Below are positions 44,392 to 46,602 of a stretch of DNA of 64,000 nucleotides, piece after piece. A model generated the notes under the pieces. It saw nothing but the letters and a program-made list of their open reading frames with translations, made no database searches and was not told the DNA's origin. Location: the sequence record PX880102.1; one strand, 5' to 3'. The stretch comes from a phage. The position numbers were made by a program, and so were the translations under genes. Every line of letters starts with the position of its first letter. The stretch's first letter is position 1.

Positions 44392-44418
44392 AAAAAGCCC
44401 CAACCTTTTGGTCGGGGC
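44392..44418 (-). terminator. Intrinsic terminator downstream of internal-protein-like gene
   Basis: 9-bp stem with one mismatch, 4-nt loop, U-run on minus strand. Confidence 0.6.
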
Positions 44419-44426
44419 TAAGAATG

Positions 44427-44900
44427 TTATTTGATTTGTTTAGCAGACCAAATGCGGTCTTTAATAATTTTTTGAATGTCTTCAACATACTCAAGAGAGT
44501 GAACATGTGGATTATCTTTGAAACTATAAGCACGGGCTAACTTTTGGCCTTCGGTTTTGATTACTAAAAGCTCTTTAAGGATAGCTTCATATTTAGAGAT
44601 AATTCCTTTAACGATATTTTTTTCTTGTGCAGCTTTAGGATCTGCTTTAGGAGCAGGTTTACCCGAAGCCTTTGCAAAAGCAGCGCCAGTAGCAACTAGA
44701 CTTTTCCAGGCCATACTAACCGCATTTCCCGTAAATCCTTCTGCTTTCATGTCGCGAGCAAATTGGAATCGTGATTCGTCAGAAGCATCTTTATAGGAAT
44801 ATTTACCCGCTGCAATGGCTGCTTTTGCGACAGCTTGAATTTCGGTGCTAGATGCTTCATTTAACACCGCTTCATTTAAAAATTGAGTATATGATTTCAT
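44427..44900 (-). CDS. Internal-protein-like head protein with capsid targeting sequence
   Basis: 157 aa; N-terminus MKSYTQFLNEA resembles the internal-protein leader; terminator follows. Confidence 0.55.
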   Translation of the reverse strand: MKSYTQFLNEAVLNEASSTEIQAVAKAAIAAGKYSYKDASDESRFQFARDMKAEGFTGNAVSMAWKSLVATGAAFAKASGKPAPKADPKAAQEKNIVKGIISKYEAILKELLVIKTEGQKLARAYSFKDNPHVHSLEYVEDIQKIIKDRIWSAKQIK

Positions 44901-44950
44901 CTTATTTCCTGTTTTAATTCGTGGATTTAATATACTACTATATTTATACT

Positions 44951-44978
44951 AAAAAGCCCCAACCTTTCGGTCGGGGCT
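44951..44978 (-). terminator. Intrinsic terminator at end of candidate small-RNA region (near-copy of 44392..44418)
   Basis: Same GCCCCAACC/GGTCGGGGC hairpin followed by U-run on minus strand. Confidence 0.6.
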
Positions 44979-44980
44979 AA

Positions 44981-45287
44981 GCCTTGCGGCAACCTTGTCG
45001 GGGTTCCACCTGCTAAGGCAAGTGTTTGTACGAAACGCCGGGATTCGAACCCGGTTATTAAGCAGTTGACGCTACTCAATATTTTTAAAAGGCCATATCT
45101 CGACCATATCCGAACGTTCCGTCAAAAACGCTACTCGGCTTACGGCAAAGATATTTCCTCGAATCGATAATTCTGTGCGCCGTTTCTGCTGTGATGTAAG
45201 AGGGCATCAATAAACGCAAGGATTATTAACGCAATTCCTTACTCAGGGAACATCAGTCCGACAACTTACCGGTAGCGACCCGGTTTC
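44981..45287 (-). ncRNA. Candidate small stable RNA(s) downstream of tRNA cluster (position of T4 species 1/2 RNAs)
   Basis: 307 nt with no ORF of 60 aa or more; tRNA-like T-arm CCGGG-TTCGAAT-CCCGG at 45038..45054; intrinsic terminator at 44951..44978. Confidence 0.4.
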
Positions 45288-45638
45288 TTAATATTCTTTT
45301 AAAGCATAAATCTGTTTACGGCGTTCACGCCATAAATCAATTGCTTCATACGCGGATTCAACATTTCGAATTGGACGGCATTTATATAAAGATTTGTGAT
45401 TTTGATATTGCGTAGATAACGGAATTTTATCTAAAAGGTCTTTACGTTCAAAGTATTCGTAACCATCTAAGCCAAATGAACGATTTTTGAGAAATTGCCA
45501 ATGACCAAATTCGTTTTGAATATAAATATAATCCGCGTGTTGATAAAGTAAATTAATTTCACGAAATGAGATATGTTTTTCATATTCATTGAAGTAAAAT
45601 GTTAAATCATGAACTACTAAATAAACATTACCTTTCAT
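45288..45638 (-). CDS. Hypothetical protein between tRNA-Arg and small-RNA region
   Basis: ORF track 116 aa. Confidence 0.45.
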   Translation of the reverse strand: MKGNVYLVVHDLTFYFNEYEKHISFREINLLYQHADYIYIQNEFGHWQFLKNRSFGLDGYEYFERKDLLDKIPLSTQYQNHKSLYKCRPIRNVESAYEAIDLWRERRKQIYALKEY

Positions 45639-45654: not shown

Positions 45655-45730
45655 TGGTCGAGGCAGTAGGGATCGAACCTACGACCTAGGACTTAGAAGG
45701 TCCTTGCTCTTCCTTCTGAGCTATGCCCCG
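45655..45730 (-). tRNA. tRNA-Arg (anticodon TCT)
   Basis: Manual fold: 7-bp acceptor, T-loop GGTTCGATCC, anticodon loop CTTCTAA, CCA encoded. Confidence 0.8.
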
Positions 45731-45734
45731 TAAT

Positions 45735-45810
45735 TGGGGTGACCGATGGGAGTCGAACCCATGACTACGAGAATCACAATCTCGAGTTCTACCAACTGAA
45801 CTACGGCCAC
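45735..45810 (-). tRNA. tRNA-His (anticodon GTG)
   Basis: Manual fold: acceptor with one GU pair, anticodon loop TTGTGAT, discriminator C, CCA encoded. Confidence 0.75.
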
Positions 45811-45924
45811 ATTAATACCTACTCCAACAATCAAGATGTCTTCACACGAAATTAAGAGAAGAGTGATCAGTTCAACCCCTATAATCGCGTCAAGTAGATA
45901 TTATTGTGACAGTTGTCACAAATT

Positions 45925-45999
45925 TGGCGGACGTGATAGGATTCGAACCTATAACCAATCGCTTAACAGGCGATCGCTCTGCCATTGAGCTACACATCC
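45925..45999 (-). tRNA. tRNA-Asn (anticodon GTT)
   Basis: Manual fold: anticodon loop CTGTTAA, discriminator G, CCA encoded. Confidence 0.75.
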
Positions 46000-46003
46000 A
46001 AAT

Positions 46004-46090
46004 TGGTGGGGAGTGATGGAGTCGAACCACCCGAGTCGCAATGACAATGGATTTACAGTCCACACCGCTACCTCTACGGGATAACTCCCC
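46004..46090 (-). tRNA. tRNA-Tyr (anticodon GTA), long variable arm
   Basis: Manual fold: perfect 7-bp acceptor GGGGAGT/ACTCCCC, anticodon loop CTGTAAA, 87 nt. Confidence 0.75.
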
Positions 46091-46103
46091 TTAATTCTTA
46101 ATT

Positions 46104-46178
46104 TGGTGGCCCTGGGTGGAATTGAACCACCATCTGGCGATTATGAGTCGCTTGCTTGAACCTTCCAGCTACAGGGCC
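46104..46178 (-). tRNA. tRNA with CAT anticodon (Ile2-type by T4 synteny, or Met)
   Basis: Manual fold: acceptor GGCCCTG/CAGGGCC, anticodon loop CTCATAA. Confidence 0.75.
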
Positions 46179-46179
46179 T

Positions 46180-46255
46180 TGGTGCTGATTGACGGAATCG
46201 AACCGCCGACCTTCTCATTACAAGTGAGTTGCTCTACCTACTGAGCTAAATCAGC
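46180..46255 (-). tRNA. tRNA-Thr (anticodon TGT)
   Basis: Manual fold: acceptor GCTGATT/AATCAGC, anticodon loop CTTGTAA. Confidence 0.75.
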
Positions 46256-46260
46256 AAAAC

Positions 46261-46350
46261 TGGCGGAGGCGATAGGATTTGAACCTATGAGTCGCCGGAG
46301 CGACTGCCGGTTTTCAAGACCGGTGCATTAAACCACTCTGCCACGCCTCC
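46261..46350 (-). tRNA. tRNA-Ser (anticodon TGA), long variable arm
   Basis: Manual fold: acceptor GGAGGCG/CGCCTCC, anticodon loop CTTGAAA, discriminator G. Confidence 0.8.
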
Positions 46351-46352
46351 AG

Positions 46353-46426
46353 TCTCCATACAAGGATTTGAACCTTGGACCTCCTGATCCCAAATCAGGC
46401 GCTCTACCAAACTGAGCTACACGGAG
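46353..46426 (-). tRNA. tRNA-Pro (anticodon TGG), CCA not encoded
   Basis: Manual fold: acceptor with two GU pairs, anticodon loop TTTGGGA. Confidence 0.7.
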
Positions 46427-46436
46427 TAAATTAAAT

Positions 46437-46510
<74 letters not shown>

Positions 46511-46515
46511 AAATT

Positions 46516-46602
46516 TGGTGCGAGAAGTGGGACTCGAACCCACAAGGAAATCATTCCGCAGCATTTTAAGTGCTGTGCCTTTACCAATTTGACCATTCTC
46601 GC
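46516..46602 (-). tRNA. tRNA-Leu (anticodon TAA), long variable arm
   Basis: Manual fold: acceptor GCGAGAA/TTCTCGC, anticodon stem CAGCA/TGCTG, loop CTTAAAA. Confidence 0.8.

What the first reader, a model, noticed from the sequence alone, without database searches (positions are those of the whole stretch)
44951..45287. ORF-free 300-nt region with a tRNA-like T-arm and its own terminator: candidate stable small RNA(s)
Downstream of tRNA-Arg and one 116 aa ORF lies a region with no ORF of 60 aa or more, containing a canonical T-arm-like element (CCGGG-TTCGAAT-CCCGG, 45038..45054) and ending at a strong hairpin plus U-run. T4 encodes two stable RNAs of unknown function next to its tRNAs, and this may be their counterpart, possibly with tRNA-like 3' processing.
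Basis: partly seen in the sequence, partly recalled or inferred. Interest (0 to 1): 0.5.

Follow-up and report, generated by a model that had tools for sequence, protein, structure and literature searches.

The report
Phage T4 rnaC and rnaD genes

Summary
The minus strand of 44951-45291 has no ORF of 60 aa or more, a canonical T-arm at 45054-45038, and a strong intrinsic terminator at 44978-44951.

The window is a Tequatrovirus. The region aligns end to end with the annotated T4 genes:
- rnaD (species 2 RNA): window 45291-45174, 113/119 identical to T4.
- rnaC (species 1 RNA): window 45167-45029, 137/139 identical to T4.
- Shared trailer and terminator: 75/78 identical.

Papers from 2010, 2022 and 2025 still call the function unknown.

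Comparative work added detail:
- rnaC is a covariation-supported tRNA-like cloverleaf. It has an acceptor-like stem and a true T-arm, and two long hairpins replace the D and anticodon arms.
- The loops of those two hairpins (UUGACG and CGUCAA) are exact complements in all 30 distinct homologues. One clade changed both sides together, which suggests a kissing-loop contact.
- In other Tevenvirinae genera rnaC sits inside tRNA arrays.
- rnaD is a separate structured family. It is also found next to tRNAs in other genera and in an unrelated Vequintavirinae phage.

Most likely both RNAs are cut from the tRNA-operon transcript by host tRNA-processing enzymes. Their biological role remains open.

The parts
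45174..45291 (-). rnaD (species 2 / II RNA) orthologue, about 118 nt. It has a 5' hairpin ACCGG-GUCGCUA-CCGGU (45284-45268), a basal stem GUUGUCG/CGGCGcAC, a conserved UCCCUG and a variable apical hairpin. Its first bases overlap the TAA stop of the 116-aa ORF.
   Evidence: 113/119 identical to T4 rnaD. Model R2 scores it 130.2 bits. Structure: 96% of cells paired and 7 compensatory pairs in close relatives; 94.6% paired and 17/30 compensatory pairs with distant relatives.
45168..45173 (-). 6-nt spacer GAAUUA between rnaD and rnaC. The same AAUUA linker separates tRNA-Trp from rnaC in other genera.
45029..45167 (-). rnaC (species 1 / I RNA) orthologue, 139 nt. It is a tRNA-like cloverleaf with four elements: an acceptor-like stem (45166-45160 with 45037-45031; 5 pairs plus 2 U.U), a long arm (45159-45089), hairpin 2 (45081-45056) and a T-arm (45054-45038).
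   Evidence: 137/139 identical to T4 rnaC. Model R1 scores it 157.8 bits and it is the only hit in the window. MFE -50.2 kcal/mol, z -4.55. 98.4% of cells paired and 24 of 43 pairs compensatory over 23 distinct homologues. The first 58 nt equal the Northern-probe oligo for T4 RNAC in PMC9697503.
45120..45125 (-). Apical loop of the rnaC long arm, UUGACG; proposed kissing partner of 45071-45066.
   Evidence: Exact reverse complement of the hairpin-2 loop in 30/30 distinct homologues. The Klebsiella-phage clade has UUGGCG paired with CGCCAA.
45066..45071 (-). Loop of rnaC hairpin 2, CGUCAA; proposed kissing partner of 45125-45120.
44979..45028 (-). Structured 3' trailer removed from the mature RNA. 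It includes the hairpin CACUUGC-CUUA-GCAGGUG (45024-45007). It is conserved in T4 and retained in a Dhakavirus that lacks rnaC.
44951..44978 (-). Intrinsic terminator of the tRNA/rnaD/rnaC transcription unit.
   Evidence: Identical stem in T4. PMC2330249 states that T4 transcription ends after the species I RNA gene.
45288..45638 (-). Context: 116-aa ORF of unknown function (phrog_3355) between tRNA-Arg and rnaD. It is absent at this position in T4, where tRNA-Arg abuts rnaD.
45655..46602 (-). Context: cluster of ten tRNA genes (Leu, Gly, Pro, Ser, Thr, Met, Tyr, Asn, His, Arg) upstream on the same strand.

Best explanation
The region encodes the orthologues of phage T4 rnaD (species 2 RNA, about 118 nt) and rnaC (species 1 RNA, 139 nt). 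These are the last two products of the tRNA operon.

How it most likely works:
1. Transcription. Transcription of the minus strand runs through the ten tRNA genes, the 116-aa ORF, rnaD and rnaC, and stops at the hairpin plus U-run at 44978-44951. This is shown for T4 in the literature and inferred here from 95-99% identity and synteny.
2. Excision. The two RNAs are then cut out of the polycistronic precursor by the host tRNA-maturation machinery. rnaC carries a 7-position acceptor-like stem stacked directly on a canonical 5-bp T-stem with a UUCGAAU loop. That is the minihelix RNase P recognises, so its 5' end would be made by RNase P and its 3' end by trimming back to the stem. This step is inferred.
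3. Functional part of rnaC. In rnaC the D and anticodon arms are replaced by two long hairpins. Their invariant loops are complementary and probably kiss. In effect rnaC is a natural tRNA scaffold carrying a compact two-arm module.
4. rnaD. rnaD is not tRNA-like. It has a 5' hairpin plus a long hairpin, with a conserved base (AAGUCGUCGG ... UCCCUG ... ACGGCGC) and a swappable apex.

My best guess for the role is that these are non-essential accessory RNAs that act by binding a protein or RNA-processing factor in a host-dependent way, not by antisense pairing. That last step is speculation.
For: Identity:
- The best BLAST hits are Tequatrovirus genomes, with 805 records matching.
- T4 NC_000866 annotates rnaC at 70908-71046 and rnaD at 71053-71171, just downstream of tRNA-Arg.
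- The window aligns collinearly with these genes, at 137/139, 113/119 and 75/78 identity.
- Some GenBank records annotate the homologous stretch as rnaC or rnaD.

rnaC structure:
- RNAalifold predicts 39 pairs, 23 of them compensatory.
- 98.4% of cells are paired, against 36-47% when the partners are slid by 1-3 columns, and 0/500 shuffles reach the observed values.
- Pair 4:139 in the acceptor stem switches between A-U and G-C. Pair 120:132 in the T-stem switches between U-A and G-C.

Kissing loops:
- 6/6 positions are complementary in 30/30 distinct sequences. Four sequences carry the double change A-U to G-C.

tRNA-type context:
- In Karamvirus, Gelderlandvirus, Winklervirus and other phages, rnaC lies between tRNA genes and 5-12 nt from them. 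Usually the order is tRNA-Trp, rnaC, tRNA-Gly.

Transcript evidence (for T4):
- A primary transcript of about 1.75 kb is the precursor of the eight tRNAs and of species I and II RNAs, and it ends after the species I gene (PMC2330249).
- A Northern blot detected RNAC with a probe whose template oligo is identical to window 45167-45110 (PMC9697503).

Host-dependent role:
- A convergent SNP arose in rnaD in all three T4-like phage lines evolved on a semi-permissive host (PMC12685909).
- rnaC is lost naturally in a Dhakavirus (MX01) and replaced by an ORF in a Gaprivervirus (TH54).
Against: - No transcript data exist for this particular phage.
- RNase P cleavage of rnaC is inferred from its shape, not shown here.
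- The acceptor-like stem has two U.U mismatches. The 3' tail is UACAA rather than NCCA, except in the Klebsiella-phage versions (UCCAA).
- In this window rnaD follows an ORF, not a tRNA, so the nuclease that makes its 5' end is unknown.
- The kissing interaction rests on a single evolutionary double change.
- rnaD alone folds no better than shuffled sequence (z = -1.0).
- The distant rnaD alignment was fitted to the model's structure, which biases the pair counts.
- Nothing here shows what either RNA does.
Confidence: 0.95

Rival explanations
1. rnaC is a decaying tRNA pseudogene with no function of its own, kept only because it lies in the tRNA operon.
For: - It has a canonical T-arm and an acceptor-like stem.
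- It occupies a slot between tRNAs in other genera.
- ARAGORN calls the SonariX copy a 95-nt tRNA-Met, and some GenBank records label part of it tRNA-Lys, tRNA-Met or tRNA-Phe.
- It is lost in MX01 and TH54.
Against: - The non-tRNA arms keep their pairing through many compensatory changes across at least eight phage groups.
- Both hairpin loops are invariant or co-vary.
- The covariation supports pairings that are incompatible with the ARAGORN cloverleaf; helix 38-41/50-53 covaries at 4 of 4 pairs.
- A decaying gene would not show this pattern. An origin from a tRNA remains plausible.
Confidence: 0.04
2. The T-arm marks a genuine but unusual tRNA gene (long variable arm or intron) that the gene finders missed.
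For: There is a weak Rfam tRNA-Sec match at 45030-45122 (16.6 bits, E = 5.4). Some records carry tRNA annotations of the homologous stretch.
Against: - ARAGORN finds no tRNA here.
- No RF00005 match appears even at E up to 10, and the tRNA-Sec score is far below its gathering score of 47.
- The covariation-supported fold has no 7-nt anticodon loop.
- There is no encoded CCA, and the acceptor stem has two U.U mismatches.
Confidence: 0.01
3. The region encodes one or more small proteins, and the RNA structures are incidental.
For: ORFs of 50, 44, 34 and 24 aa exist in the region.
Against: - All but the smallest use TTG starts.
- Open frames differ in length and frame among close relatives.
- Homologues differ by 1- and 2-nt indels.
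- Substitutions are pairwise compensatory, not biased to codon third positions.
Confidence: 0.01
4. The two RNAs are trans-acting antisense regulators of phage or host mRNAs.
For: They are abundant, stable and conserved, and PMC9697503 calls them small regulatory RNAs.
Against: - The longest complementarity to the rest of the 64-kb window is 11 nt, which is at chance level. The only longer matches are to the duplicated terminator.
- The conserved single-stranded loops of rnaC are complementary to each other, not free.
- Host targets and the rest of the phage genome were not searched.
Confidence: 0.1
5. The stretch is only a structured 3' UTR and processing platform for the tRNA operon or the 116-aa ORF, and its RNAs are by-products.
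For: It lies at the 3' end of the operon, is followed by the terminator, and in this window follows an ORF.
Against: - In T4 no ORF precedes it.
- rnaC and rnaD occur separately and at different places in tRNA arrays in other genera, and rnaD also occurs in Vequintavirinae.
- Discrete stable species are reported in T4 (PMC9697503; PMC2330249).
Confidence: 0.08

Closest known systems
Phage T4 rnaC (species 1 / I RNA; NC_000866 70908-71046)
   Same: 137/139 nt identical. Same position after rnaD and before the same trailer and terminator. Same fold.
   Different: Two substitutions only: one in the long arm, and one that changes a U-A pair to U-G in hairpin 2. The upstream operon is of the T2L type (no segB; extra tRNAs His, Asn, Tyr and Met).
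Phage T4 rnaD (species 2 / II RNA; NC_000866 71053-71171)
   Same: 113/119 nt identical, with the same hairpins and the same spacer to rnaC.
   Different: In T4 it starts 1-2 nt after tRNA-Arg-CCA; here it follows the stop codon of a 116-aa ORF. T4 ends GCGCACCA and the window ends GCGCACAG. The CCA-like end is not conserved in the family (CCA, CCG, CAG or CCU).
tRNA (Rfam RF00005)
   Same: In rnaC: a 7-position acceptor-like stem stacked on a 5-bp T-stem with a UUCGAAU loop, location in tRNA arrays, and probable RNase P processing.
   Different: No D-arm, no anticodon arm with a 7-nt loop and no encoded CCA. It scores below any tRNA threshold.
tRNA-like domain of tmRNA, and bacterial Y-RNA-like YrlA
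   Same: All are stable RNAs that join an acceptor/T-arm module to a non-tRNA functional module.
   Different: No tag reading frame and no pseudoknot series. No Rfam or ARAGORN tmRNA match in the region, and no YrlA match there. E. coli has no Ro/Rsr partner (own knowledge).
Engineered tRNA scaffolds and RNase P-processed phage RNAs (e.g. P1/P7 C4 antisense RNA)
   Same: A tRNA-like shape is used to obtain precise ends and stability for an unrelated RNA module. The C4 precursor is listed as an RNase P substrate in the reference list of PMC11143913.
   Different: The function of the carried module is unknown for rnaC. The resemblance is by architecture only.

Membership tests
T4 rnaC (species 1 RNA) | Sequence homology to the annotated T4 gene over its full length | tested here: met
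   137/139 identical; model R1 scores 157.8 bits
T4 rnaC (species 1 RNA) | Position at the 3' end of the tRNA operon, after rnaD and before the operon terminator | tested here: met
T4 rnaC (species 1 RNA) | Conserved secondary structure shared with homologues | tested here: met
   98.4% of cells paired, 24 compensatory pairs
T4 rnaC (species 1 RNA) | Accumulates as a discrete stable RNA of about 140 nt in infected cells | not testable with these tools
   Shown for T4 by Northern blot (PMC9697503). The probe oligo is identical to window 45167-45110. No data exist for this phage.
T4 rnaD (species 2 RNA) | Sequence homology to the annotated T4 gene over its full length | tested here: met
   113/119 identical; model R2 scores 130.2 bits
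T4 rnaD (species 2 RNA) | Immediately upstream of rnaC with a 6-nt spacer | tested here: met
T4 rnaD (species 2 RNA) | Accumulates as a discrete stable RNA of about 120 nt | not testable with these tools
   Reported for T4 only (PMC9697503; PMC2330249)
tRNA (RF00005) | Covariance-model score at or above the gathering score (29 bits), or an ARAGORN call | tested here: not met
   No RF00005 hit in 44951-45291 even at E up to 10. The only match is tRNA-Sec at 16.6 bits against a gathering score of 47. ARAGORN makes no call.
tRNA (RF00005) | Anticodon arm with a 7-nt loop, and a D-arm | tested here: not met
   The covariation-supported fold has a 71-nt arm and a 10-bp hairpin with a 6-nt loop instead
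tRNA (RF00005) | Acceptor stem stacked on a T-arm with a UUCRANY loop | tested here: met
tmRNA (RF00023) | tRNA-like domain plus tag reading frame and pseudoknots; ARAGORN or Rfam call | tested here: not met
YrlA (RF02553) | Covariance-model match | tested here: not met
   The only weak hit (17.7 bits against 69) lies on true tRNAs, not in this region

The most novel reading that the evidence does not exclude
rnaC and rnaD may be two independent, mobile families of structured RNAs that live in phage tRNA arrays.

- rnaC would be a natural tRNA scaffold. Its two non-tRNA arms are locked by a conserved 6-bp kissing-loop contact (UUGACG with CGUCAA).
- rnaD would be a family with a conserved core that has moved between Tevenvirinae and Vequintavirinae.
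- Both would act as host-specific accessory factors. For example, they could serve as decoys or sponges for a host factor that binds tRNA or other RNA, or for a defence factor. That would explain the convergent rnaD mutation seen during adaptation to a semi-permissive host.

I found no description of the kissing contact or of the wider distribution in the papers I could read, but I could not read the classical literature.
Probability: 0.15. Interest if true: 0.6.

Novelty: already known. Interest (0 to 1): 0.25.

Why it matters
The finding itself is a correct re-identification of two annotated T4 genes, so it adds nothing new. What remains interesting is that rnaC and rnaD are among the oldest unexplained gene products of T4.

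The comparative results give concrete handles for experiments:
- a defined fold for each RNA;
- two co-varying loops in rnaC that can be tested by compensatory mutagenesis;
- conserved core motifs in rnaD;
- natural rnaC-less relatives that can serve as controls.

Many public genomes leave these genes unannotated or label part of rnaC as a tRNA. The two covariance models built here could correct that.

Tried and rejected
- Rfam. At gathering thresholds only the ten tRNAs match. At E up to 10, nothing meaningful appears in the region: tRNA-Sec 16.6 bits, isrK 16.5 bits and anti-hemB 14.3 bits, all far below their cut-offs.
- Antisense targets. The longest complementarity between the locus and the rest of the window is 11 nt, which is chance level, apart from the duplicated terminator.
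- Coding potential. No conserved frame was found.
- Flanking ORFs. Pfam and PHROGs give families of unknown function only.
- More loop covariation. A metagenome scan and a viral-contig scan with patterns anchored outside the loops returned only sequences of the same two loop types. A further BLAST with the Gelderlandvirus copy found no new clades. The kissing contact therefore still rests on one double change.
- Late promoter. TATAAATA on the minus strand occurs at 47576-47569 and 47884-47877, upstream of the tRNA cluster, and at 44948-44941, after the terminator. None lies directly before rnaD. The count in the window is no higher than chance.
- Classical papers. The original papers on species 1 and 2 RNA, and the 2003 T4 genome review, are not held in the library. 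Statements about them rest on later papers or on my own knowledge.
- ARAGORN's 95-nt tRNA-Met call in the SonariX copy was rejected, because the covariation supports different pairings.

Full report
**Observation**

The tRNA cluster of the window lies on the minus strand. Ten tRNA genes run from 46602 down to 45655 and end with tRNA-Arg(UCU) (Rfam agrees). Downstream on that strand comes a 116-aa ORF (45638-45288). It is followed by a stretch in which no ORF exceeds 50 aa.

Read on the minus strand, CCGGG-UUCGAAU-CCCGG lies at 45054-45038. A terminator with 10 stem pairs, a GAAA loop and a U-run lies at 44978-44951. The T-loop motif GGTTCGAATCC, allowing one mismatch, occurs eight times in the window. 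All eight are on the minus strand, seven in called tRNAs and one here, against 0.55 expected by chance.

**Identity**

BLAST of the region against phage genomes finds 805 records, nearly all Tequatrovirus and its relatives. The best matches are 99% identical.

The T4 reference genome annotates two misc_RNA genes just downstream of tRNA-Arg: rnaD ("small, stable RNA; species 2 RNA", 71053-71171) and rnaC ("species 1 RNA", 70908-71046). The window aligns collinearly with both genes and with the trailer and terminator that follow them.

| Element | Window coordinates (-) | Identity to T4 |
|---|---|---|
| rnaD | 45291-45174 | 113/119 |
| rnaC | 45167-45029 | 137/139 |
| Trailer and terminator | 45028-44951 | 75/78 |

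The differences from T4 lie in the context. In T4, tRNA-Arg abuts rnaD. Here a 116-aa ORF (phrog_3355, unknown function) sits between them, and its TAA stop overlaps the first bases of rnaD. The same arrangement occurs in several other Tequatrovirus contigs.

The tRNA set here (with Met, Tyr, Asn, His and Arg, and no segB) matches the segB-less T2L-type region described in PMC2330249.

**What the literature says**

In T4 the tRNA region is transcribed as a primary transcript of about 1.75 kb. That transcript is the precursor of the eight tRNAs and of species I and II RNAs, and it ends after the species I gene. The region is not essential (PMC2330249).

- A 2010 review states that the biological roles of RNAC and RNAD are unknown (PMC3014915).
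- A 2022 transcriptome study again calls them RNAs of unknown function. It classifies them as late RNAs and validates this by Northern blot (PMC9697503). The RNAC probe oligo printed there is identical to window 45167-45110.
- A 2025 evolution study found one shared SNP, inside rnaD, in all three lines of a T4-like phage adapted to a semi-permissive host (PMC12685909).

I found no paper that assigns a function. The original papers from the 1970s and 1980s are not in the library.

**Structure of rnaC**

I collected homologues from the phage collection, from viral contigs and from metagenomes. That gave 30 distinct sequences from 41 loci. They come from Tequatrovirus, Mosigvirus, Gaprivervirus, Karamvirus, Winklervirus, Kanagawavirus, Moonvirus, Gelderlandvirus and Klebsiella-phage (Jiaodavirus-like) genomes.

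On 23 of these sequences (alignment A3), RNAalifold predicts 39 pairs, 23 of them with compensatory changes. For the structure I specified:
- 98.4% of cells form standard pairs, against 36-47% when partners are slid by 1-3 columns.
- 24 of 43 pairs show changes on both sides.
- No shuffle out of 500 reaches the observed values.

The fold is a cloverleaf with four elements:
- An acceptor-like stem of seven positions: five pairs plus two central U.U mismatches. Pair 4:139 alternates between A-U and G-C.
- A 71-nt irregular hairpin where the D-arm would be.
- After an A-rich linker, a hairpin of about 10 pairs with a 6-nt loop.
- One base further on, a canonical T-arm that runs straight into the 3' strand of the acceptor stem. 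Its middle pair alternates between U-A and G-C.

The single sequence from the window folds the same way (-50.2 kcal/mol, z = -4.55).

The 3' tail is U-ACA-A in most sequences and U-CCA-A in the Klebsiella-phage versions. An encoded CCA is therefore not a family feature.

The RNA is not a tRNA by any test I could run. ARAGORN makes no call. Rfam gives no tRNA hit even at E up to 10, and the tRNA-Sec match scores 16.6 bits against a gathering score of 47.

**A probable kissing contact in rnaC**

The apical loop of the long arm reads UUGACG (45125-45120). The loop of the second hairpin reads CGUCAA (45071-45066). These are exact reverse complements.

Both loops are invariant in 26 of the 30 distinct sequences, although the stems beneath them change freely. 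The four Klebsiella-phage sequences have UUGGCG and CGCCAA, a double change that keeps all six pairs.

This suggests a loop-loop contact that locks the two non-tRNA arms together. It rests on one evolutionary event, and two further database scans found no other loop variants. I regard it as likely, not shown.

**Genomic setting of rnaC elsewhere**

In Karamvirus, Gelderlandvirus, Winklervirus and other phages, rnaC lies inside the tRNA array. It usually sits between tRNA-Trp and tRNA-Gly, a few bases from each. The same AAUUA-type linker that separates it from rnaD in the window separates it from the upstream tRNA there.

This setting, together with the acceptor/T-arm minihelix, is the basis for the processing model. 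RNase P would cut at the 5' end of the acceptor-like stem, and exonucleases would trim the 3' side. That is inference from shape and context. I could not test it.

rnaC is dispensable in nature. Dhakavirus MX01 keeps rnaD, the trailer and the terminator but has rnaC precisely deleted. Gaprivervirus TH54 has an ORF in its place.

**Structure and spread of rnaD**

Among close relatives the two ends of rnaD are nearly invariant, while the apical part differs and is swapped outright in some phages. The fold has these parts:
- A 5' hairpin, ACCGG-GUCGCUA-CCGGU. Its closing pair alternates between A-U and G-C.
- A long hairpin closed by GUCGUCG/CGGCGcAC.
- Conserved unpaired stretches that include UCCCUG.

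On its own, the window's rnaD folds no better than shuffled sequence (z = -1.0).

A weak BLAST hit led to Escherichia phage W70 (Vequintavirinae). There an rnaD-like RNA follows tRNA-Met. Its core is identical to the T4 core, but its 5' hairpin has a different sequence that still pairs. It scores 81 bits with model R2.

The same model finds weaker but significant matches (27-29 bits, E about 1e-4) in Moonvirus, Karamvirus and Klebsiella-phage loci. Each lies next to tRNA genes and away from rnaC.

On the combined alignment, 94.6% of cells pair and 17 of 30 pairs show compensatory changes, including all five pairs of the 5' hairpin. That alignment was fitted to the model, which favours the structure. 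rnaD is thus a separate family, wider than the T4 group. The CCA-like 3' end seen in T4 is not conserved.

**Function**

Nothing I ran reveals a function.
- There is no conserved reading frame.
- There is no antisense target in the rest of the window beyond chance.
- The flanking ORFs belong to families of unknown function.

Three facts bear on the question: the RNAs are dispensable in some phages, they sit among tRNAs, and rnaD mutated convergently during host adaptation. My best guess is therefore a host-dependent accessory role exerted by binding a protein or an RNA-processing factor. I hold this loosely.

**Verdict**

- Observation: confirmed.
- Novelty: already known.
- Interest: low for the finding itself. 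The fifty-year-old question of what these RNAs do remains open, and the structural details above make it somewhat easier to test.

Noticed in passing
window 44396-44948 (-): A cassette that T4 lacks sits just after the rnaC terminator. It consists of a late-promoter-like TATAAATA (44948-44941), a 157-aa ORF (44900-44427, phrog_2280, unknown function) and a second, nearly identical copy of the terminator (44419-44396). The duplicated terminator looks like the scar of an insertion.
   Followed up: partly
window 45811-45924 (-): The 114-nt spacer between tRNA-His and tRNA-Asn folds well above chance (-32.9 kcal/mol, z = -3.4). It could be another small structured RNA or a processing element.
   Followed up: no
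L042 (Escherichia phage MX01) 494-700; L043 (phage TH54) 493-1189: MX01 has rnaC precisely deleted, with rnaD running straight into the trailer and terminator. TH54 has an ORF in place of rnaC. These are natural rnaC-minus relatives.
   Followed up: partly
L044 (Escherichia phage W70, Vequintavirinae) 692-793 and 520-606: An rnaD-like RNA (81 bits with model R2) lies directly after tRNA-Met in a phage of a different subfamily. About 90 nt upstream there is an uncalled tRNA-like element with a GCGCGGG/CCCGCGC stem and a GAAGG-UUCGAGU-CCUUC T-arm.
   Followed up: partly
L045 478-621; L046 478-606 (Karamvirus and Jiaodavirus phages): Between the rnaD-like RNA and tRNA-Asp lies a further unannotated stretch of 130-144 nt. 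It is closed by a long stem whose sequence differs between the two phages but stays complementary (z = -4.0 and -5.0). It is possibly a third RNA of the tRNA cluster.
   Followed up: no
L002 (Erwinia phage Virsaitis27) 522-600; L007/L008 (Klebsiella-phage contigs), just upstream of rnaC: Two other elements lie between a tRNA and rnaC. The first is about 80 nt and tRNA-like (GGGAGUU...AGCUCCC-A-CCA), and ARAGORN does not call it. The second is about 52 nt, and its ends (GGGGUGG / CCACUCC) can form a 7-bp stem with a G.U at the third pair.
   Followed up: no
GenBank records OQ599310 (L041 671-764), PQ898399 (L004 651-745), KJ101592, MK327946, OK210076: Part of rnaC is annotated as tRNA-Lys, tRNA-Met or tRNA-Phe in several public genomes. 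Most genomes leave rnaC and rnaD unannotated or place hypothetical proteins over them.
   Followed up: partly
window 45925-45999 (-): The window carries tRNA-Asn in a segB-less, T2L-type tRNA region. PMC2330249 reports that the preferred cleavage site of the T4 homing endonuclease SegB lies in this gene in T2L. This phage would therefore be a likely recipient of segB homing in a mixed infection with T4.
   Followed up: no
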